This document shows positions 3,764-63,413 of a stretch of DNA of 64,000 nucleotides, piece after piece. Within the stretch, counting starts at the first letter, position 1. Every line of letters begins with the position of its first letter. A program made the translations under genes and the position numbers. The notes beneath the pieces were generated by a model. It ran no database searches. It was not told the origin of the DNA and was given only the letters and a program-made list of their open reading frames with translations. The stretch is from a virus. The stretch is from IMG/VR virus record IMGVR_UViG_3300038299_000097, positions 10,816 through 74,815 of that record; one strand, written 5' to 3'.

Positions 3764-4381
3764 ATGTCTACAGAACTACCAGATTGCGACGAACCCGAAA
3801 ACAATATAACAGATAATACATATGGTGAAACACCAGATGTGAGTGGTCTTAATAGACTAGTAGATGACAATTTCTTAACAATTCTTAACCTCCCTAAATG
3901 TTTGGGTGGTTATGTTAAGGAAGTGTGCGGTGTAGCGGAAGAGGTTTCATTAAAGAATTTACAACTATCGGTAATGAACTTTACTATACCTCCTATTAAT
4001 ATACCCACTCACAACACCAAATTTTTATCAGCTACTCGTAAAGAGAGTAGCAAGAGCCTGTCAGAGTATGAAGATATAACTATAAACTTCAAACTTGATG
4101 ATCAGCTCATCAATTATAACACATTGTATAAGTGGTTGAATATGTTGGTTGATACTAAGACTGGTACTATGTCTAGTAAGACTAAAATTGATTATGAGAC
4201 TACTTATGATGTAGTAATACTTGACGAATATAGAAAACCCGCAGGTCTATATAAGTTCCATGGTGTTATACCAGTAGGTATCGGATCTATACCACTAGAT
4301 TATAAATCCACAGGAGAATCCATATTTTTAGACTTTACTTTCGCTTTTGACTTCCTTTCTTTCGAACTAGCCCCTAAATAA
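3764..4381 (+). CDS. T4 gp3-like tail completion / tail-tube-fold protein
   Basis: NFTIPPINIP, YEDITINFKLDDQLINYNTLYKWL, FTFAFD motifs; TAATTA motif upstream. Confidence 0.7.
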   Translation: MSTELPDCDEPENNITDNTYGETPDVSGLNRLVDDNFLTILNLPKCLGGYVKEVCGVAEEVSLKNLQLSVMNFTIPPINIPTHNTKFLSATRKESSKSLSEYEDITINFKLDDQLINYNTLYKWLNMLVDTKTGTMSSKTKIDYETTYDVVILDEYRKPAGLYKFHGVIPVGIGSIPLDYKSTGESIFLDFTFAFDFLSFELAPK

Positions 4382-25604: not shown

Positions 25605-25633
25605 ATTGACAGGGGTGTAATTATTATGTACAA
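25605..25633 (+). promoter_or_regulatory. Sigma70-type promoter for nrdAB
   Basis: TTGACA-N17-TACAAT. Confidence 0.7.
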
Positions 25634-25646
25634 TACTATGACTGAT

Positions 25647-27887
25647 ATGGAAAAAGAGATACGAATTGTGAAGAGGGACGGAGTTGAAGAGAACTTCAAA
25701 ATAGACAAAATTACAAAAATACTGGAGTGGGCATGTGAAGGGATCGAGGATGTGGTACCAGACCATATATTATACAACGCTAAGTTAAATGTTTTTGACG
25801 GCATTAAATCTAGTGAGATACACCAAATCATTGTGGAGTCTGCTGCAAGCCTTATTGATAAAGAGGTTAATTACACCAAGGTTGCGGCAAGCCTTATGAA
25901 TTATAAACTTCGTAAAGAGGTTTGGGGTGGTAAGAACCCACCAAAGCTTTATGATCTCCTCAAGAAGGGTATTAAGAAAGGCTTCTACGACCCAGAGCTT
26001 ATCAAAATTTACACCAAGGCTCAGATCAATAAGCTTGATGAGTATATCAAGCATGATAGGGACAGTCGTTTTGAGTATGGTGGTCTAGTACAACTTACGG
26101 AGAAGTATTTAGTACAGAACCGTAACACCAAGGAGATCGTGGAAACGCCCCAATTTGCGTACATGATGGCATCGATGGCACTTTGTATCAAAGAAGCACC
26201 ACGACAGCGTGTGAAGTGGGTGAAGGAGTTCTATGATGACTTCTCTAATCATAAGATCAACGTGTCCACACCAATTATGTCGGGTGCAAGAACAAGAGTC
26301 CGTAGCTATTCATCATGTTGTATTATTGACGTAGCTGATACTAAGCATTCCATCACATCATCTGTCACATCATCTGTGTTGGTTACTGCTGATAAGTATG
26401 GTATTGGACTCAACTATTCTAAGATCCGTTCTATCAATGAACCAATCCGTGGCGGGGAAGCTTCACACGGTGGTGTAATCCCTTGGTTGAAACTCAGTCA
26501 AGCAGCGATTCAAGCATCACAGCAAGGACCTAGACGTGGTGCGGGTACGTGTACGTTCTTCGCAATGCATCCAGAGATCGAAACTATCCTACAATTAAAG
26601 GATACACTTCTTCCAGAGGACAGAAAGGTCGAGCACTTGGATTACTCCATTGCTATGACAAACCTATTCTACCACAGACTACTAGAAGGTGGTGACATTA
26701 CGTTGTGTTCATATAACCAAGCACCAGATGTTTACAAGGCATATGGTACACCATTTTTCAACGATATCTATGAAAAGTGGGAGCTGGAGAATCCAGATGC
26801 ACCCAAGATTACTACCGAAAGGTTCTTCTCATTACTCGCTAAACAACGTAGTGAGACTGCTAGAATTTACATCTACAACATTGACGAGAACTTCACCAAC
26901 TCTGCTTGGTTGCCTCGTGTTGAGGCATATAATTTATGTCAAGAAGTGGGTGGACCTACTAAACCCGAACGGTTCACAGAAGACCCAGAAGCTGAAACGG
27001 TTGTGTGTGTCCTCAGTGCCCCCAATGCATGTAATATAAAGGATGATGCGGATCACAAGAGAGTACTTTACAACATTGTTCGTATCCTTGATAACGTCAT
27101 CGATGTACAGGAGTACACGGTGGATGCTTGTAAGAGGTATGCAGAGAACAAACGCTCACTTGGTGTTGGTATTAGTAACCTAACAGGTTGGCTCGCACTC
27201 CAAGGTCTTAACCACTCATCTATTGAGACACCACAGGTGGTTTCAGACTTCTTCGAGAAACAACAATACTACCTTATTGAAGCATCTATTGAACTAGCTA
27301 AAGAGCGTGGTAAGTGTAAGGATTTCAACCAGTCTAAATACTCTAAAGGTATTATGCCAGTGGATCGTTACAATAAGAATGTTCATGAGTTCCTTGATGA
27401 AGAACACAAGCTCGACTGGGACAGGATCAGAGCAGCAGTATTGAAGTATGGTATGAGACATTGTACTCTATCATCATTCATGCCATGTGAAGCTAGTTCG
27501 GTTGTACAGTCATCTACTAACGGGTTTGAACCAATTCGTGACCTAGTGGTGTACAAAGAATCCAAGACAGCAATGACTATTGTAGTAGCACCAAATGTGA
27601 AGACACATGGTCAACACTATGTTAGAGCTTATGACGCACCTAACAACGATGGTTACATCAAAGTAGTAGCAGTACTGACTAAGTGGTCTGACATGGGTGT
27701 TAGTGGTAATCTATACTACAACCCTGCATACTTCGAAGGTGGTATCATCCCACAAGATTACATCATCCAAGATATCCTCACAGCAACCCGATACGGTTGG
27801 AGAACTTTCTACTACCATAACACCGATGATGGTGATAAGGAAGTAAGCGAAGATAGTGCTTGCGCCTCTGGTGCTTGCTCACTATAA
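25647..27887 (+). CDS. nrdA: Ribonucleotide reductase class Ia alpha subunit
   Basis: ATP-cone IVKRDG, SSCC, NLCQE, TFYY and C-terminal CASGAC; exact start uncertain. Confidence 0.95.
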   Translation: MEKEIRIVKRDGVEENFKIDKITKILEWACEGIEDVVPDHILYNAKLNVFDGIKSSEIHQIIVESAASLIDKEVNYTKVAASLMNYKLRKEVWGGKNPPKLYDLLKKGIKKGFYDPELIKIYTKAQINKLDEYIKHDRDSRFEYGGLVQLTEKYLVQNRNTKEIVETPQFAYMMASMALCIKEAPRQRVKWVKEFYDDFSNHKINVSTPIMSGARTRVRSYSSCCIIDVADTKHSITSSVTSSVLVTADKYGIGLNYSKIRSINEPIRGGEASHGGVIPWLKLSQAAIQASQQGPRRGAGTCTFFAMHPEIETILQLKDTLLPEDRKVEHLDYSIAMTNLFYHRLLEGGDITLCSYNQAPDVYKAYGTPFFNDIYEKWELENPDAPKITTERFFSLLAKQRSETARIYIYNIDENFTNSAWLPRVEAYNLCQEVGGPTKPERFTEDPEAETVVCVLSAPNACNIKDDADHKRVLYNIVRILDNVIDVQEYTVDACKRYAENKRSLGVGISNLTGWLALQGLNHSSIETPQVVSDFFEKQQYYLIEASIELAKERGKCKDFNQSKYSKGIMPVDRYNKNVHEFLDEEHKLDWDRIRAAVLKYGMRHCTLSSFMPCEASSVVQSSTNGFEPIRDLVVYKESKTAMTIVVAPNVKTHGQHYVRAYDAPNNDGYIKVVAVLTKWSDMGVSGNLYYNPAYFEGGIIPQDYIIQDILTATRYGWRTFYYHNTDDGDKEVSEDSACASGACSL

Positions 27888-28010
27888 TGAATGTATACCT
27901 TATGTGCCTCTCTTAACATGGACTGAAGCAAAATTCATGAGGTGGTCGATGACCCAAGAATCCTATGTTCAAGGGTCATCACTTTTACAAATAAACAAAT
28001 AAACAAATAA

Positions 28011-29084
28011 ATGAGTAACACAGTTTTAAATCTAGAGAAGCGTGATGCATTGGCTGAACCAATGTTTTTCGGCACACCCCTTGGAATCCAACGTTTCGAC
28101 GTGGTTAAATATCCAGAGTTTGCAAAGTCCGTAGAGACACAATTTTCCAACATGTGGAACCCAAAGGAGATAGGTATGGCATCAGACCTAGCTTGTTATG
28201 AATCACTCTCAGATACCGAGAGATTCATCTTCGAGACAAATCTTCGATTCCAGACAGCGGGTGATTCACTACTTTCCAGAAGTATTGAAGCAATCAAACA
28301 ACATGTCACAAACTCAGAACTTGAGTACGCAATGAACTGGTGGGGTCTTATGGAGAATATTCACTCCGAGAGTTACACCCACGTACTACAAGGGATCACT
28401 AAAGATCCTACACCATTCTTCGATTCTATTCTAGAAGACACAGAACTGGTTGAACGTATGCAGACCATCATCAAACCCTTCAATGACCTTCTTGAAGATA
28501 AGGAAGGTGACTGTAAGCGCACGAAATTATTCAAAGCGGTGTTGGCACTACAAATTGCTGAAGGTGTTCTATTCTACACATCATTTGCATGTAGTTTCTT
28601 CTTCGCTAAGAACGGTAAGATGACCCAGAACGGTAAGATCATTTCTATGATTAAGCGTGATGAGTCAGAGCACCAATCAATCACACAGAACATACTCAAG
28701 AGAATGCGCGAAGATCCGTCCGAGGGGTTCCAAGATATCGTAAAGGCTCATGAACAATTCGTTTATGATTCATACGAGGTTGCACTTGATGGTGAAAAGA
28801 AGTGGGGTGATTACTTATTCTCTAAGGGTGAGATGGTCGGACTTACTAAAGCATCTCTCCATGGCTATGCTGAGTGGAATGTTCGTGGTCGTTTGAGATC
28901 CAATGGTTATGATCCATCAAAGTTTGCTTACCCACTAGCAGAACAGAATCCTATTTCATGGTTGGTTAAATTCCTTGACTCAAGTCGTGTACAGGCGGCA
29001 CCTCAAGAGATCGAGAAGACTGATTATAAGAAGATGGGAACTGTAAACAATCTTGGTAGTTCGCTTAAGACATTAAAATTCTAA
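28011..29084 (+). CDS. nrdB: Ribonucleotide reductase class Ia beta subunit
   Basis: ENIHSESY, EGVLFYTSF, RDESEH and QAAPQE motifs. Confidence 0.95.
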   Translation: MSNTVLNLEKRDALAEPMFFGTPLGIQRFDVVKYPEFAKSVETQFSNMWNPKEIGMASDLACYESLSDTERFIFETNLRFQTAGDSLLSRSIEAIKQHVTNSELEYAMNWWGLMENIHSESYTHVLQGITKDPTPFFDSILEDTELVERMQTIIKPFNDLLEDKEGDCKRTKLFKAVLALQIAEGVLFYTSFACSFFFAKNGKMTQNGKIISMIKRDESEHQSITQNILKRMREDPSEGFQDIVKAHEQFVYDSYEVALDGEKKWGDYLFSKGEMVGLTKASLHGYAEWNVRGRLRSNGYDPSKFAYPLAEQNPISWLVKFLDSSRVQAAPQEIEKTDYKKMGTVNNLGSSLKTLKF

Positions 29085-29102
29085 GTTTATTACCAACTTA
29101 GC

Positions 29103-29131
29103 TTGACACTGATTTAAAACTGTGCTAATCT
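29103..29131 (+). promoter_or_regulatory. Sigma70-type promoter P1 of the ncRNA array
   Basis: TTGACA-N17-TAATCT; unit 1 starts 7 nt downstream. Confidence 0.75.
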
Positions 29132-29137
29132 AAGTAT

Positions 29138-29225
29138 GTCACCAGCTACAGGAAGGATATATATAATTCAGTCGGGATCACCCTTCGGGGCATCCCCGAT
29201 CCAACAACCTTCCTAATACGGTGAC
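29138..29225 (+). ncRNA. Y-RNA-like unit 1 (apical cUUCGg hairpin)
   Basis: gtcacc/ggtgac stem, AGCUA/AAUAC internal loop, aggaagg/ccttcct stem, ccc-ttcg-ggg. Confidence 0.7.
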
Positions 29226-29380
29226 TATAAATAAAACGCCCAGCCACGGCTGGGTTATATTATAAAACTGAAGTCGAAAGACATTGGGGGTTCGAGTCCC
29301 TCACTTCCCACTCGACGGGAAGTTGGCGAAATTGGTAGACGCATCAGATCAACTCATCCAATTCGGGCGTTTTATTTATA
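29226..29380 (+). ncRNA. Y-RNA-like unit 2 with permuted tRNA-Leu-like domain (YrlA-like)
   Basis: Perfect 16-bp terminal stem; AGCCA/AAUUC loop; then variable arm, T-arm (29286-29302), closed acceptor stem acttccc/gggaagt, D-arm tggcgaaattggtagacgca. Confidence 0.8.
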
Positions 29381-29384
29381 TTCA

Positions 29385-29473
29385 GATCAAATGAAAACAG
29401 TTCCTCAGCTAAGTGTATGTTATTTATATTCAAAACACACATACCCAATTCGGGGAGTTGTTTTCATTTGATT
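29385..29473 (+). ncRNA. Y-RNA-like unit 3 (minimal)
   Basis: About 22-bp terminal stem, AGCUA/AAUUC loop, gtatgt/acatac stem, AU-rich loop ending tcaaaacac. Confidence 0.7.
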
Positions 29474-29549
29474 TAAGAGAACGTCTATCTCTGGGACGGT
29501 ACTCCGTTACCAGTAGCGTCTTGTTATAAAGATAATGTCAAAACAGTTG

Positions 29550-29577
29550 TTGACAATATGATCAAACCTGTTAAAGT
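29550..29577 (+). promoter_or_regulatory. Sigma70-type promoter P2 of the ncRNA array
   Basis: TTGACA-N16-TAAAGT; unit 4 starts 7 nt downstream. Confidence 0.7.
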
Positions 29578-29583
29578 AATTGT

Positions 29584-29646
29584 GTCACCAGCTAAGAGAG
29601 TGTTATTTAAATGAAATCAAAACACACACACTCTCAATACGGTGGC
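29584..29646 (+). ncRNA. Y-RNA-like unit 4 (minimal)
   Basis: gtcacc/ggtggc stem, AGCUA/AAUAC loop, gagagtgt/acactctc stem, loop ending tcaaaacac as in unit 3. Confidence 0.7.
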
Positions 29647-29792
29647 TATAAATATGGCATTCAGCTAGGTATAAGTTAAACTATTAAACAATTGGTCACA
29701 GGTTCAAATCCTGTCATCTCAGCCTTATGGGATGTAGCTCAGTCTGGTAGAGCAGTTGATACAACTTGTACGATTCGGGTGCCATATTTATA
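29647..29792 (+). ncRNA. Y-RNA-like unit 5 with permuted tRNA-Asn-like domain (YrlA-like)
   Basis: 16-bp terminal stem; AGCUA/GAUUC loop; T-arm acagg-ttcaaat-cctgt, closed acceptor catctca/tgggatg, D-arm tagctcagtctggtagagc. Confidence 0.8.
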
Positions 29793-29825
29793 TCCTTCAA
29801 CATAAACAACAAACACCACTAACTA

Positions 29826-31868
29826 ATGTTACTATCCGAAAACGCAGTATATGTTCAGCCTTCTAAGTCAGCTCGTAGTAAGAGCAACTCAGTTAAAATT
29901 GCTAACCTGCTCTCTATTGAGTTAATGAACTACGGTATTCAGCTAAGTGCCGACCTTCGTAATTCAATTTCCAAGCTTAATGCCAAGGACGCTCAGTCAG
30001 TAGCTACTGAGATCCTTAAGGCTAACACCATGGGTAGTCTAACACCACCACTTTTCCGTAATTGGGAACAGCGTAATGCGTTCACCACTGGGGAGATCAT
30101 TGTGCAACTCTTTGCATACGTATTCCAAATCTCTGGTAATGATCTTTATGATCCAGAGTTCCTCAACAACCTTGACCGTGATTTTGATTACACCAAGACG
30201 CTCAACCTTGCTACCAAGGATGACGCAACCAAGAAGTTCAGCACTCTTGCAACCACACGAGTGCCACTCGACATGGCTTCTATGCAACTTGTAGTACAAC
30301 TTGCTAAGACACTTCCTTTGGACAACTGTGAACGTATCTTCTCTGATGAAGTTCGTGTGGCTGTTATCGACGGTGATGGCGGTTGTGACTTTAAATCTTT
30401 CAAAGGGCGACCAACTGACGTTCTTAAACTCTTCGCACTCCGCAAGAATCAAAACACTCTCGACATGAAACTACCTGTCGATGTCAAATTTGACGCCCTC
30501 TCATGGTCTGAGAGAATCAAAACACTTGAGTTCCTTGAGTCCTTCGGTTTCGAATATCTATCTGAAGAGATGGGTAAGAACCGTGGAGCTTGGTCTAAGT
30601 TCTTCAACCACATTCATGCTTTCGGGCAGAAGGGTTGGAGTAATAGATTCCCTAATTTCATGATGGCATCAATGGCATCCGTTCAACGTAATATTAGTCT
30701 AGTAGATAAGAAGACCGTCAAAGGTTTCTCAGAACTAATACTTAGTGGTGGCGTTGAAGTGGTTTCTAATAAGTTTGTTTACCGTACATTCGCTTCCCGT
30801 GTAGAATCAACACTCAAAAACTACAAGACATTTGATCAAGTGGTTGCAGTGTTTGGTAACAAGGGTTCTTATGTTCTCAACAACTTGACCTCTATTTCTA
30901 ACAAGATCAAGAAGGCAGACTCTCGTAAGTTTGTGGAGCTTGTTCGTGGGTTTCTTACCAATGCACCAGTCAAAACTCTGTTCTCTATTCTATCTATCGA
31001 TGTGAATGCAGAGTGGCGTGTGATTGATGTTAAGGGTAGCACCAAGATCGAAACTGCCAACTATAGTTCTGTCATTGGTGACATCCAAGGTGACATCAAG
31101 ATCGCCCTACATGAGCGTTTCGGGTTCGAGGGTAAGGTAACAGTCGATAAAGAGCTTGCGACACTAGGTGTGCCATTCTTGACCACTAGTTCACAACTTA
31201 GCCGTGGTACTCGTTACTCATTCACTGATGACGAATATCTCTACTTCTTCATGAAGTGGATTCAGCCAGAGAATCGGACTACAGATCTTGACCATAGCCT
31301 TCTTTACTTCGATGCGGATTGGAATTCACAACACGTTTCATTCTCTCGTCAAGTTGATACATTCATCCGACATGGTGGTGACATCACCAGTGCGCCAGCC
31401 CCACATGGTGCCAGTGAATACTCACGAGTTGATCTCAAACTAATCCCGAAAGCTGTTAAGTACATCGTACCATCAGTGTTCGTATATAGAGGTACTAAAC
31501 TTTCATTGAATGATGAGGCATATGCAGGATTCTACTTCGGTGATAACGATTCGTTCTCCCTTAAACAGGAACACACACGTTACGACTTCACTCAGCCATC
31601 AGGGTTTAACGTACCATTCATCATCGACGTTGAGAATCGCGAGATTGTAGTGGTGGATTATAACCAAGAGACCTCTGGTAATGTTGTTCAGTCTGCTGTA
31701 TGTGATATCAAGAACCTCATCAGTGCTACGAATTCTAAGAACTACATCACCGTTGAGGATCTAGCAGAGATTCTATCTGGTGATAAGGATACCACATCCT
31801 TAAATATCTCAAACGATAGTGGCGATGGTATAGTAGCACCACAGGATTTATTCTCACTGTTCGCATAA
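29826..31868 (+). CDS. Helical protein with C-terminal TerD-like domain; candidate Ro60/TROVE-like RNA-binding protein
   Basis: N-terminal ELMNYG...PLFRNW; C-terminal W...DLDHS...HGGDITSAP..GASEY; directly downstream of the RNA array. Confidence 0.65.
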   Translation: MLLSENAVYVQPSKSARSKSNSVKIANLLSIELMNYGIQLSADLRNSISKLNAKDAQSVATEILKANTMGSLTPPLFRNWEQRNAFTTGEIIVQLFAYVFQISGNDLYDPEFLNNLDRDFDYTKTLNLATKDDATKKFSTLATTRVPLDMASMQLVVQLAKTLPLDNCERIFSDEVRVAVIDGDGGCDFKSFKGRPTDVLKLFALRKNQNTLDMKLPVDVKFDALSWSERIKTLEFLESFGFEYLSEEMGKNRGAWSKFFNHIHAFGQKGWSNRFPNFMMASMASVQRNISLVDKKTVKGFSELILSGGVEVVSNKFVYRTFASRVESTLKNYKTFDQVVAVFGNKGSYVLNNLTSISNKIKKADSRKFVELVRGFLTNAPVKTLFSILSIDVNAEWRVIDVKGSTKIETANYSSVIGDIQGDIKIALHERFGFEGKVTVDKELATLGVPFLTTSSQLSRGTRYSFTDDEYLYFFMKWIQPENRTTDLDHSLLYFDADWNSQHVSFSRQVDTFIRHGGDITSAPAPHGASEYSRVDLKLIPKAVKYIVPSVFVYRGTKLSLNDEAYAGFYFGDNDSFSLKQEHTRYDFTQPSGFNVPFIIDVENREIVVVDYNQETSGNVVQSAVCDIKNLISATNSKNYITVEDLAEILSGDKDTTSLNISNDSGDGIVAPQDLFSLFA

Positions 31869-31882
31869 GACTTACAAAAATT

Positions 31883-31917
31883 CAACCCTCATACCTTAAG
31901 TGGTGTGGGGGTTTTTT
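31883..31917 (+). terminator. Intrinsic terminator
   Basis: aaccctcatacc/ggtgtgggggtt stem plus T-run; followed by TTGACA-N17-TAAGGT for rIIA. Confidence 0.75.
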
Positions 31918-31957
31918 ATTGACACAAACCGCCAAATATAGTAAGGTCTCTCCACAG

Positions 31958-33880
31958 ATGAATATACCCGTAGAACCACAGAACACAGTGAAGTCCAATA
32001 ATTTCGAGACTTCAGAGATGACCATCGAACTTGGTCAGATTAATATGGTAGCCCAGATTGTTAGGGATAAGATTTATACTGATAAACCCATGGCACCAGT
32101 TCGAGAGTATGGGTGCAATGCACTTGACGAACACCTAAAGCATAATGTTGGAAGGATGGTCGAGTTCACTATTGATGATATTAAAAGTACATTCAGCGTG
32201 AGGGACTTCGGTCTAGGACTTAGTAATGATTTTGTAATGAAAGTCTACGGCATGATAGGTAAGACCACTAAGAAGGATGACGACACCCAGACTGGTGGGT
32301 ATGGTCTAGGCTCTAAGTCTGGACATGCTTACGGTGATCAGTTCACTATCACGTCATACTACGGCGGTAAGAAGACTGTATACATTGCCATCCTTGAAGG
32401 AGATGGTGTACCAATTGGTGTGATCAACAAGGTTAGTGTAACAGACACTGATGAACCAACTGGTGTTGAGATCTCACTACCTATTAAAGATGGTGAACTA
32501 CCCTCATTCAAAGATCGCATGTCAACATTCCTTAAGGGTGTTCGTACTGACGTTGTGTACAATGGTGAGGTTCATAATGAAAGACACCCAACGGTTGAAG
32601 GCCATAGCCACATCCACCACAGTGCTTCCCATGTTAGAATGGGTGATGTTATCTATAAGATTGATTTCCCTACACAGTTCACCAAGAACAATATTCCTAT
32701 CACAATCGATGCACCGTTAACCTCTCTAACATTCCCCCCAAGCCGTGAGTCTATCGATAACACACCACACAACCAAAAGGTTATAGATGACATTATCAAT
32801 GAGTACATGGCTATTGAGGATCTAAAATTTAAAGAGTTGCTTAAGACTGAGAAGGTGAACACACTACTCAAACTTGCCACATCAACCCAGACATACAGGT
32901 ATCTTGTAACTCTCAATAACTATGTTAAAGACGGTCTTACTATATCAACCAAGACTCAACTTGGTTATGTGATGGCAAATAATGATATACTTATGAGCTA
33001 TATGGATCAGCGTGATGGTTATGAAGTTTTCAAACATAATCGTGATCAGAACGCTAAACCTAAGAAGATGGAACTTAGTACGATTGAGATGACTAACTTC
33101 TTCATATCTAAAAGGCGGTGTGGTGTACCACTATCTAACGAGATCGTTAAGCACTATGATAAAGACGATCTTAAATATGACAAATACTGTACAGAGTTCT
33201 CGGTTATATATGAACACAAAGGTAACCAAGAATTCATCACAGAGCTTCGCAAGGTTCTAGAGTGTCGTGATCTTGATGAAGACGTGTACATTAAAACCAA
33301 TGTTACCAGAGCCGCAACCAAAGCTCGTAGAGGTAAGGTAGAGTTCAGTAAACTTAATAAAGTAGAGTATGGTAGAATTAGAAATAATGATACCGACATC
33401 AATTCTCTTGTTAAGTCATACCCATTATTCTACTCCGACTGGCAGGATTATTCCAGACGTACAAAACAACCTTACTATAAACTCACCAAGGTACAATTTG
33501 AATACCTAAAATCTAAGGGTTATAAGATGGTTCATATGACTAATATGAATGATACACTAAAACAGATGGTGTATGATAAGTCTACCAAGCTAGAACGTTT
33601 CCAGTATGCTAAGTATAGGTTCATAGAAAAGTCTGATGTTCGTAAACATTTTGCCAAGGGTGTTATGTTTAAGCAACCTAGATATAAGAAATCATTTGAT
33701 GCATTCAAAGATATTGATTATGATGAGTCTGTTGAGTATAAGAAGTTTATTGACATTCTAGGTAGAGTGAGTGATAATATATTACCTTCTTGGAAAGTTC
33801 GAGCAATGAAAAGGCTCGCAGGTTTCAACGGTGCTACAGAACACAAAGAGGCAATGGATATAATTTTACACGCAAAATAA
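31958..33880 (+). CDS. rIIA: rIIA-like protein (N-terminal GHKL/HATPase domain)
   Basis: IYTDKPMAPVREYGCNALD, SVRDFGLG and GGYGLGSKS motifs; adjacent to rIIB. Confidence 0.88.
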   Translation: MNIPVEPQNTVKSNNFETSEMTIELGQINMVAQIVRDKIYTDKPMAPVREYGCNALDEHLKHNVGRMVEFTIDDIKSTFSVRDFGLGLSNDFVMKVYGMIGKTTKKDDDTQTGGYGLGSKSGHAYGDQFTITSYYGGKKTVYIAILEGDGVPIGVINKVSVTDTDEPTGVEISLPIKDGELPSFKDRMSTFLKGVRTDVVYNGEVHNERHPTVEGHSHIHHSASHVRMGDVIYKIDFPTQFTKNNIPITIDAPLTSLTFPPSRESIDNTPHNQKVIDDIINEYMAIEDLKFKELLKTEKVNTLLKLATSTQTYRYLVTLNNYVKDGLTISTKTQLGYVMANNDILMSYMDQRDGYEVFKHNRDQNAKPKKMELSTIEMTNFFISKRRCGVPLSNEIVKHYDKDDLKYDKYCTEFSVIYEHKGNQEFITELRKVLECRDLDEDVYIKTNVTRAATKARRGKVEFSKLNKVEYGRIRNNDTDINSLVKSYPLFYSDWQDYSRRTKQPYYKLTKVQFEYLKSKGYKMVHMTNMNDTLKQMVYDKSTKLERFQYAKYRFIEKSDVRKHFAKGVMFKQPRYKKSFDAFKDIDYDESVEYKKFIDILGRVSDNILPSWKVRAMKRLAGFNGATEHKEAMDIILHAK

Positions 33881-63332: not shown

Positions 63333-63339
63333 ATAAAGG

Positions 63340-63413
63340 TTGGCGTGGTAGGATTTGAACCTACATTGTCTCCTCAAAACGGAGAGCGTAATAACCAGTT
63401 ATACTACACGCCA
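63340..63413 (-). tRNA. tRNA, anticodon read as UUU (Lys) with atypical loop GTTTTGA
   Basis: TGGCGTG/CACGCCA acceptor; TCTCC/GGAGA anticodon stem; GTAGG-TTCAAAT-CCTAC T-arm. Confidence 0.75.

What the first reader, a model, noticed from the sequence alone, without database searches (positions are those of the whole stretch)
29103..31868. Array of five Y-RNA-like hairpins plus a TerD-domain protein: candidate non-canonical Ro60/Y-RNA system
Seen: the 740-bp gap after nrdB contains five units (29138-29225, 29226-29380, 29385-29473, 29584-29646, 29647-29792). Each has an outer stem ending in C, then AGCUA (AGCCA in unit 2), an inner 6-9-bp stem, a variable apical cargo, then AAUAC/AAUUC/GAUUC and G. 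Stem sequences differ between units but keep pairing, while the loop is conserved, which is the signature of a protein-binding RNA motif. Cargoes differ: a UUCG hairpin, two permuted tRNA domains and two AU-rich loops. No clear terminator separates unit 5 from the 680-aa gene. Known: bacterial YrlA Y RNAs combine a Ro60-binding stem with a tRNA-mimic domain and lie next to Ro60 (TROVE plus vWA) genes, using a GNCGAA-type motif. Here that motif is absent on the RNA strand and the neighbour ends in a TerD-like domain. Inference: one scaffold protein loaded with interchangeable RNAs, perhaps acting as tRNA decoys or in RNA repair against host anticodon nucleases.
Basis: partly seen in the sequence, partly recalled or inferred. 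Interest (0 to 1): 0.93.

Follow-up and report, generated by a model that had tools for sequence, protein, structure and literature searches.

The report
Phage Ro60-like protein with handle RNAs
A large phage carries five small folded RNAs that share one conserved "handle" (two also carry a tRNA look-alike) directly in front of a gene for a Ro60-like ring protein ending in a TerD domain, and this RNA-gene pair recurs in every related phage examined, so it is probably an undescribed cousin of the Ro60/Y-RNA particle, although binding has not been shown.

Summary
The gap 29103-29825 holds five stem-loop units with one shared scaffold. The scaffold is an outer stem P1 ending in C-G, an internal loop AGCUAN / NNU(U/A)C, a 7-bp stem P2, and an apical loop that starts (A/U)UAU and carries variable cargo.

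A covariance model built from 38 such units found 60 copies in 248 kb of related loci and 8 more in three MAG contigs. Every copy lies on the gene strand, within about 750 nt upstream of a homologue of the 680-aa protein (29-45% identity). None lies elsewhere. Both stems covary strongly.

The cargo of units 2 and 5 is a circularly permuted tRNA body, in the order T arm, sealed acceptor stem, D arm. That is the YrlA layout, and unit 5 matches Rfam YrlA at E 7e-7.

I read it as a Ro60/Y-RNA-like ribonucleoprotein with a new RNA handle. Binding and function are untested. I found it in no paper, in Rfam or in Pfam. This scan's earlier notes report the same kind of pair on at least eight other genomes.

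The parts
29103..29131 (+). Sigma-70-like promoter 1: TTGACA, 17-nt spacer, TGc-TAATCT. The -10 hexamer ends 6 nt before the first base of unit 1.
   Evidence: Read from the sequence. The same layout, TTGACA-N17-TATAAT directly before the first unit, occurs in L009, L016, L020 and L004. Transcription is inferred.
29138..29225 (+). Handle RNA unit 1. Cargo is a GC-rich hairpin capped by UUCG.
   Evidence: Fold. Covariance model 45.3 bits, E 1.5e-12. Parsed.
29226..29380 (+). Handle RNA unit 2 with a 16-bp P1 and the variant J12 AGCCAC. Cargo (29255-29352) is a permuted class-II-like tRNA body: variable arm, T arm, sealed acceptor stem, D arm.
   Evidence: ARAGORN calls the un-permuted cargo an 84-nt cloverleaf. 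The YrlA model aligns the same arm order, but only at 14 bits, E 1.9.
29385..29473 (+). Handle RNA unit 3 with a 22-bp P1 and a minimal AU-rich apical loop.
   Evidence: Covariance model 54 bits, E 4e-15.
29550..29577 (+). Sigma-70-like promoter 2: TTGACA, 16-nt spacer, TGt-TAAAGT. It ends 6 nt before unit 4.
   Evidence: Promoter scan, 10 of 12 matches with TG.
29584..29646 (+). Handle RNA unit 4 with a minimal AU-rich apical loop.
   Evidence: Covariance model 53.9 bits, E 5e-15.
29647..29792 (+). Handle RNA unit 5 with a 16-bp P1. Cargo (29676-29764) is a permuted tRNA body in YrlA order. The linker after the acceptor 3' strand reads G-CC.
   Evidence: Rfam YrlA 41.2 bits, E 6.8e-7, model positions 23-88. 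ARAGORN calls the un-permuted cargo a 75-nt cloverleaf.
29826..31868 (+). 680-aa protein. Residues 1-130 are an N-terminal region of unknown fold. Residues about 130-395 are a Ro60/TROVE-like helical ring. Residues about 397-445 are a small beta-beta-alpha-beta unit (beta-grasp-like, my reading). Residues about 465-631 are a TerD fold. A C-terminal helical tail follows.
   Evidence: AlphaFold models with pLDDT 81 and 84. Structure searches with VIA-align and Foldseek. NCBIfam NF041916, E 2e-47, below the cut-off. Homologues.
31884..31913 (+). Intrinsic-terminator-like hairpin with a U run, after the protein gene.
   Evidence: Terminator scan.

Best explanation
This is a phage-encoded ribonucleoprotein system built on the plan of Ro60 with its Y RNAs.

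Most likely sequence of events:
1. Host RNA polymerase transcribes the small RNAs early, from two sigma-70-like promoters (inferred).
2. Each RNA presents the same handle: the internal loop AGCUAN / NNUUC, a 7-bp helix of fixed length, and the (A/U)UAU base of the apical loop.
3. The 680-aa protein made from the adjacent gene binds that handle (inferred from strict co-occurrence). The binding surface is probably its Ro60-like helical ring.
4. The variable apical cargo works as an exchangeable adaptor. Cargo is a plain loop, a GC hairpin, a T-arm-like hairpin or a complete tRNA body that lacks the anticodon loop and has a sealed acceptor end. It would bring the protein to different partners, much as Y RNAs tether Ro60 to PNPase. 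The tRNA-like cargo would target enzymes that recognise the tRNA body, such as RNase P, the CCA-adding enzyme, modification enzymes or tRNA-directed nucleases (speculative).
5. The TerD domain takes the place of Ro60's vWA/MIDAS cap. It keeps part of the TerD metal-site motifs (DxDxS and GD), so it may sense a cation or a small ligand (speculative).

Shown here: the RNA structure, its conservation and linkage to the gene, the tRNA mimicry, and the folds of the protein model. Inferred: binding, transcription start sites and function.
For: RNA structure:
- On 38 units, P2 is 96% paired and all 7 of its pairs show compensatory changes. The inner 4 bp of P1 are 100% paired. The covariation score is 0.876, against 0.23 in shuffles and at most 0.17 when partners are slid.
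- Hits outside the seed set (L003, L006, L007, L009, L010, L018) pair at 6-7 of 7 positions with different sequences.

Linkage to the gene:
- 60 hits at E <= 1.5e-5 in 248 kb, all on the gene strand within about 750 nt upstream of a homologue, in 19 loci plus the window.
- 8 more hits upstream of the gene in L040-L042.
- Flanking genes differ between loci. nrdA and nrdB are not found in any of the other loci; rIIA lies downstream in only two (L003, L006).

tRNA mimicry.

Protein:
- With the full-length model, Ro60 entries align over 305-330 residues.

Precedent: phage Ro60 genes with Y RNA genes upstream on the same strand are known (PMC4201824, PMC12135203).
Against: - There is no binding or expression data.
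- TROVE is undetectable by sequence: Pfam, hhalign probability 0.09% and 0.35%, and none in the 74.8-kb record.
- The handle has no resemblance to the Ro-binding GNCGAA or GGUCCGA motif.
- The CM built on this handle found no copy beside the cellular relatives tested (metagenome loci L026-L033, ten Streptomyces loci, one Deinococcales MAG). I did not look for other RNAs there.
- tRNA-like cargo was seen only in this phage among the loci scanned with Rfam.
- No RtcB, RNA ligase or CCA enzyme lies in the 74.8-kb fragment, which is only about a third of the genome.
Confidence: 0.6

Rival explanations
1. The units form a cis-acting leader. They would be repeated operator or attenuator hairpins in the 5' UTR, through which the protein or another factor controls expression of the downstream gene. 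They would not be free-standing small RNAs.
For: - The units always lie upstream on the same strand.
- In the window there is no terminator and only 33 nt between unit 5 and the ATG.
Against: - Arrays hold up to 5-6 units with diverse cargo, including full tRNA bodies, which is excessive for an operator.
- Several units have their own sigma-70-like promoters.
- In L002-L005 the last unit ends in a U run, and a separate promoter-like motif then precedes the gene.
- Small ORFs interrupt the arrays in L013 and L020.
Confidence: 0.12
2. The RNAs are independent phage small RNAs, for example decoys for host tRNA-directed defence nucleases or regulators. They would share an early transcription unit with the gene but would not be bound by its protein.
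For: - The cargo mimics tRNA.
- tRNA gene clusters adjoin the locus in L002/L004, L011 and L012.
- No binding has been shown.
Against: - The conserved part of the RNA is the handle, not the cargo. That points to one common binding partner.
- The only gene that stays with the handle across 29-45% protein identity and changing neighbours is this one.
- The tRNA bodies lack an anticodon loop, which is what most anticodon nucleases recognise (established knowledge of PrrC/RloC-type enzymes).
Confidence: 0.15
3. The pair is a true ribonucleoprotein, but the protein is only an analogue of Ro60. Its helical domain would be an unrelated alpha-solenoid that resembles the Ro60 ring by chance or by convergence.
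For: - hhalign and HMMER find no TROVE signal.
- Foldseek found only weak generic solenoid hits.
Against: - All three Ro60 representatives rank first out of 48,161 chains, with roughly twice the aligned length of the longest other hits listed.
- The result recurs with an independently built full-length model.
- The non-significant hhalign alignment runs in roughly the same register as the structural one.
- The gene-plus-upstream-RNA layout and the YrlA-style cargo match Ro60 loci.
Confidence: 0.3
4. The units are selfish or structural repeats, such as REP- or MITE-like palindromes or terminators, and have no RNA function.
For: - They are tandem, palindromic and intergenic.
- Some final units end in U runs.
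Against: - Compensatory changes keep the pairing while the stem sequences differ.
- The loops are invariant.
- All units share one orientation and one genomic position relative to one gene in all the loci checked with the CM (19 metagenome loci, three MAG contigs and the window), and none lies elsewhere.
Confidence: 0.03

Closest known systems
Ro60 (Rsr; TROVE + vWA) with Y RNAs of bacteria and phages: YrlA/YrlB (Rfam RF02553; Chen et al. 2014, PMC4201824) and Thermus phage phiLo Ro60 with Yrl1/Yrl2 (PMC12135203)
   Same: - Several small RNA genes lie directly upstream of the protein gene on the same strand.
- The RNAs are modular: a protein-binding stem plus a variable module.
- Two RNAs carry a tRNA-like domain in the YrlA arm order (T arm, sealed acceptor stem, D arm).
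- The predicted helical domain matches Ro60 rings best.
- A metal-binding-type domain follows the ring.
   Different: - There is no TROVE sequence signature.
- TerD, plus a small beta-grasp-like unit, stands where Ro60 has vWA/MIDAS.
- There is an extra N-terminal region of about 130 residues.
- The RNA handle is CAGCUAN / NNUUCG around a fixed 7-bp helix, not GNCGAA(N)G.
- There are up to 5-6 RNA paralogues per locus.
- The Rfam YrlA score is 41 bits, against a gathering score of 69.
MXAN_6230/SCO0854 family RING domain-containing proteins (NCBIfam NF041916; carry Pfam Prok-RING_4, PF14447)
   Same: The helical domain through the TerD region is homologous: E 2.3e-47 over residues 197-620; structural TM 0.78 in the ESM Atlas.
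   Different: - The phage protein lacks the RING finger and scores 162 bits against a cut-off of 600.
- No handle RNA was found beside the cellular relatives tested, which included ten Streptomyces loci.
- I found no described function for that family.
TerD-domain proteins (Pfam PF02342; structures 2kxt, 3ibz, 2qz7)
   Same: - The DxDxS and GD motifs align with TerD.
   Different: - Here TerD is one domain of a 680-aa protein that is not in a ter operon.
- The acidic GEGDDE calcium-binding stretch is replaced by PAPxGA(T/S)EY.

Membership tests
Ro60 / TROVE (Pfam PF05731) | TROVE domain detectable by sequence profile | tested here: not met
   - No Pfam TROVE hit for the protein or for 22 homologues, even at E <= 10.
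- No TROVE in the 74.8-kb record.
- hhalign against a 16-sequence TROVE alignment: probability 0.09%. With a 163-sequence family profile: 0.35%, E 0.17.
Ro60 / TROVE (Pfam PF05731) | HEAT-repeat ring (toroid) fold | tested here: inconclusive
   [not shown]
Ro60 / TROVE (Pfam PF05731) | C-terminal vWA domain with a MIDAS site | tested here: not met
   The C-terminal domain has a TerD fold. TerD matches 13 of 22 homologues by Pfam.
Ro60 / TROVE (Pfam PF05731) | Binds Y RNA and misfolded RNA | not testable with these tools
   Needs EMSA, pull-down or CLIP.
YrlA Y RNA (Rfam RF02553) | Reaches the family's gathering score (69 bits) | tested here: not met
   Unit 5 scores 41.2 bits, E 6.8e-7, over model positions 23-88 only. 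Unit 2 scores 14 bits, E 1.9.
YrlA Y RNA (Rfam RF02553) | tRNA-like domain in the order T arm, closed acceptor stem, D arm | tested here: met
   YrlA model alignment of unit 5. ARAGORN calls the un-permuted cargo of both units 2 and 5 a cloverleaf tRNA.
YrlA Y RNA (Rfam RF02553) | GNCGAA(N0-1)G motif near the 5' end (PMC4201824) | tested here: not met
   The 5' strand of every unit reads C-AGCUA-N (AGCCA in unit 2). No GNCGAA lies in the stems.
YrlA Y RNA (Rfam RF02553) | Encoded within 4 kb of a TROVE protein gene on the same strand | tested here: inconclusive
   The units lie 34-688 nt upstream, on the same strand, of a protein that is Ro60-like only by predicted structure.
TerD domain (Pfam PF02342) | TerD beta-sandwich fold and sequence profile | tested here: met
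   - Sequence: the family profile hits 3ibz at E 0.0066, and 13 of 22 homologues match PF02342. The window's own protein falls below Pfam's reporting level.
MXAN_6230/SCO0854 RING family (NCBIfam NF041916) | Score over the curated cut-off, and an N-terminal Prok-RING_4 finger | tested here: not met
   161.7 bits against a cut-off of 600, matching profile positions 269-713 of 842 only. There is no RING hit. The protein is a relative, not a member.

The most novel reading that the evidence does not exclude
This would be a deeply divergent, previously unrecognised branch of the Ro60/Y-RNA ribonucleoproteins. TerD has replaced vWA, and the RNA partner has become a standard handle that accepts interchangeable cargo.

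The tRNA-body cargos could be cut by RNase P in the acceptor linker. Unit 5 keeps G-CC after the acceptor 3' strand. The cut would yield a two-piece tRNA with a real acceptor end held on the protein. That would let the phage recruit, sequester or monitor host tRNA enzymes or tRNA-directed defence nucleases.

As a corollary, the RING-bearing SCO0854 family of cellular bacteria (seen here mainly in Streptomyces) would be Ro-like ring proteins fused to an E3-type finger.
Probability: 0.35. Interest if true: 0.9.

Novelty: new variant of a known kind. Interest (0 to 1): 0.8.

Why it matters
Ro60 and its Y RNAs are conserved from bacteria to humans, yet their function is still poorly understood. 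If this reading is right, it would contribute three things.

- **A natural variant for dissecting the system.** It has a different cap domain and a sharply defined RNA handle with swappable cargo. That makes it possible to test what the ring, the cap and the RNA modules each do.
- **Wider reach of tRNA mimicry.** tRNA-mimicking adaptor RNAs would extend beyond TROVE loci.
- **First functional leads.** It would give a lead for a widespread family of uncharacterised jumbo-phage proteins, and for the SCO0854 RING/TerD proteins of cellular bacteria (seen here mainly in Streptomyces).

The handle could also be used as a modular protein-recruiting RNA tag.

Tried and rejected
- **Rfam, all 4227 families, on the region at E <= 10.** Only the partial YrlA hit is meaningful. 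The miRNA, tmRNA and other rows are chance-level.
- **blastn of 28000-32000 against 50,697 phage records.** No match. tblastn of the protein found only four distant partial hits, so no cultured phage in that collection has a close homologue.
- **Foldseek with the N-domain.** Only weak generic solenoid rows, none of them Ro60. The similarity appeared only with the exhaustive aligner.
- **Sequence searches.** HMMER against PDB sequences gave nothing for the N-domain. hhalign against TROVE was not significant.
- **ESM Atlas.** It returned only relatives of the same TerD/RING family, no TROVE cluster.
- **Gene neighbours of two cellular homologues (L026, L028).** No informative common context.
- **RtcB, RNA ligase and CCA-enzyme families in the 74.8-kb record.** None found, but the record is about 33% of the genome.
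Comparison with 17 phage tRNAs gave no specific best match: unit 5 was closest to Pro and Met, and unit 2 tied between Leu and His. I leave this open.
- **Papers.** Burroughs et al. 2011 (PMC5938088), which defined the prokaryotic RING families, and a second look-up (PMC4104200, an id I recalled from memory for a review of the Ter system) were not held.
- **A composite 135-nt unit in L006** from my first pattern scan turned out to be two ordinary units.
Full report
**Setting.** The window is part of a 74.8-kb IMG/VR viral record estimated to be 33% complete. An identical copy of the 680-aa protein lies on a 231-kb contig, so this is a jumbo phage. The neighbours are nrdA (25626-27887) and nrdB (28011-29084) upstream, and rIIA and rIIB downstream. 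The finding covers the 741-nt gap after nrdB and the next gene.

**Observation.** Folding and direct parsing confirm five units at the stated coordinates. Each unit has these parts:
- an outer stem P1 of 6, 16, 22, 6 and 16 bp, closed by C-G;
- a 5' internal-loop strand AGCUA plus one base (AGCCA in unit 2);
- an inner stem P2 of exactly 7 bp;
- an apical region that begins (A/U)UAU and holds variable cargo;
- a 3' internal-loop strand of 5 nt, ending in UC or AC, followed by G.

Two sigma-70-like promoters, at 29103-29131 and 29550-29577, each end 6 nt before the first base of units 1 and 4. The array therefore looks like a duplicated cassette: a promoter, a short-stem unit, then a long-stem unit with tRNA-like cargo. 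No terminator-like site separates unit 5 from the ATG at 29826. One follows the gene at 31884-31913.

**Is the structure real?** Homologues of the 680-aa protein (29-45% identity) occur on many metagenomic phage contigs. Their upstream regions hold the same kind of hairpins.
- On 38 short units, P2 is 96% paired and all seven pairs show compensatory changes. The inner four pairs of P1 are always paired. The covariation score is 0.876, against 0.23 in shuffles and at most 0.17 with slid partners. My selection pattern required part of this pairing. However, the pairs it did not require (P1 pairs 5-6, P2 pairs 6-7) also hold.
- A covariance model built from the alignment recovered units in loci that gave no seeds (L003, L006, L007, L009, L010, L018). 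These pair at 6-7 of 7 positions in P2 with different sequences.

**Linkage to the gene.**
- The model gives 60 hits at E <= 1.5e-5 in 248 kb. Every hit is on the gene strand, within about 750 nt upstream of the homologous gene, in 19 loci plus the window.
- It gives 8 more hits upstream of the gene on three MAG contigs.
- There are no hits elsewhere in the 64-kb window and none beside the distant cellular relatives tested (metagenome loci L026-L033, ten Streptomyces loci, one Deinococcales MAG).
- The surrounding genes differ between loci. nrdA and nrdB are not found in any of the other loci, and rIIA lies downstream in only two. tRNA gene clusters adjoin the pair in four or five loci. Small ORFs interrupt two arrays.
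- The RNA array and this gene are therefore the conserved unit.

**Cargo.**
- Unit 5 matches Rfam YrlA at 41.2 bits, E 6.8e-7. The match covers only model positions 23-88, which are the tRNA-like part and not the Ro-binding stem.
- Unit 2 aligns in the same arm order, but without significance.
- I placed the 5' half of each cargo before its 3' half, with a placeholder anticodon loop and CCA. ARAGORN then calls both cargos cloverleaf tRNAs, of 75 and 84 nt, the second with a long variable arm.
- Both are therefore circularly permuted tRNA bodies. The acceptor end is sealed by a loop, and the handle replaces the anticodon loop. This is the YrlA design (PMC4201824).
- A specific Leu or Asn origin, proposed in other first-stage notes, was not supported.
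- Other loci carry simpler cargo, including T-arm-like hairpins. Rfam found no YrlA-like cargo in eight other loci.

**The protein.**
- Pfam finds nothing in it.
- AlphaFold models have pLDDT 81 for the full length and 84 for residues 1-395.
- Foldseek gave only weak solenoid rows for the N-domain.
- With the full-length model, the Ro60 entries follow TerD directly and align over 305-330 residues.
- Sequence profiles do not support homology: hhalign probability 0.09% and 0.35%.
- The protein is a RING-less relative of the NCBIfam MXAN_6230/SCO0854 RING family, at E 2.3e-47 and below the cut-off.

**Interpretation.** The conserved part of the RNAs is the handle. The only gene that always travels with the handle is this one. 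That gene's product looks like Ro60 with a different cap domain. Known Ro60 loci of bacteria and phages have the same layout, with Y RNA genes upstream on the same strand (PMC4201824, PMC12135203).

I therefore read the locus as a Ro60/Y-RNA-like ribonucleoprotein. The protein binds the handle, and the cargo serves as an adaptor. My confidence is 0.6 that the pair forms such a particle, and somewhat less that the protein is a true TROVE homologue. No repair genes were found in the fragment available.

**Novelty.** Nothing in Rfam 15 matches the handle. No Pfam family covers the helical domain. Five full-text searches found no paper that links TerD proteins to Y-like RNAs. The jumbo-phage survey from the Aravind group mentions only canonical TROVE proteins and Ter operons.

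This scan's earlier notes, which are unchecked AI notes, report the same kind of RNA-array plus helical/TerD protein pair on at least eight other genomes. My results agree with them, and I reached them independently before reading them.

Noticed in passing
L003:3680-3705 and 3975-3998; L005:3668-3690 and 3975-3995: The shared motif AAACACTA-N4-TATA(C/A) stands before the RNA array and again before the protein gene in two distant phages. It may be a phage-specific promoter.
   Followed up: no
L013:2426-2720; L020:2531-2842: Small ORFs of about 100 aa are inserted between handle RNA units inside the arrays.
   Followed up: no
L004:4655-6697; L011:1443-2475; L012:377-452; L002:6170-6329: tRNA gene clusters on the same strand directly adjoin the RNA array or the protein gene in several related phages.
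   Followed up: partly
window 29144-29147 and the equivalent position in each unit: The invariant core of the 5' loop strand, AGCU, is a palindrome. Two handles could therefore pair with each other. Phage phiLo Ro60-Yrl2 complexes are reported to dimerise (PMC12135203).
   Followed up: no
window 29716-29727: In unit 5 the acceptor 3' strand is followed by G-CC-UUA before the acceptor 5' strand. This looks like a tRNA 3' end (discriminator plus CC) joined to a short leader. It would fit RNase P cleavage and CCA completion, as shown for M. smegmatis YrlA (PMC4201824).
   Followed up: no
window 29474-29549: The 76-nt spacer between unit 3 and promoter 2 folds into a modest hairpin (GGGACGG/CCGUUAC) without a U run. 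Its role is unknown.
   Followed up: no
L043-L119 (Streptomyces loci): The cellular relatives (SCO0854-type RING/TerD proteins) are very common in Streptomyces genomes: 229 loci were confirmed in the species-representative collection, and most of the 80 kept are Streptomyces. The handle-RNA model found no copy in the ten Streptomyces loci I scanned.
   Followed up: partly
window 63338-63413 (- strand): A tRNA-Lys (UUU) gene is the only canonical tRNA in the window.
   Followed up: no
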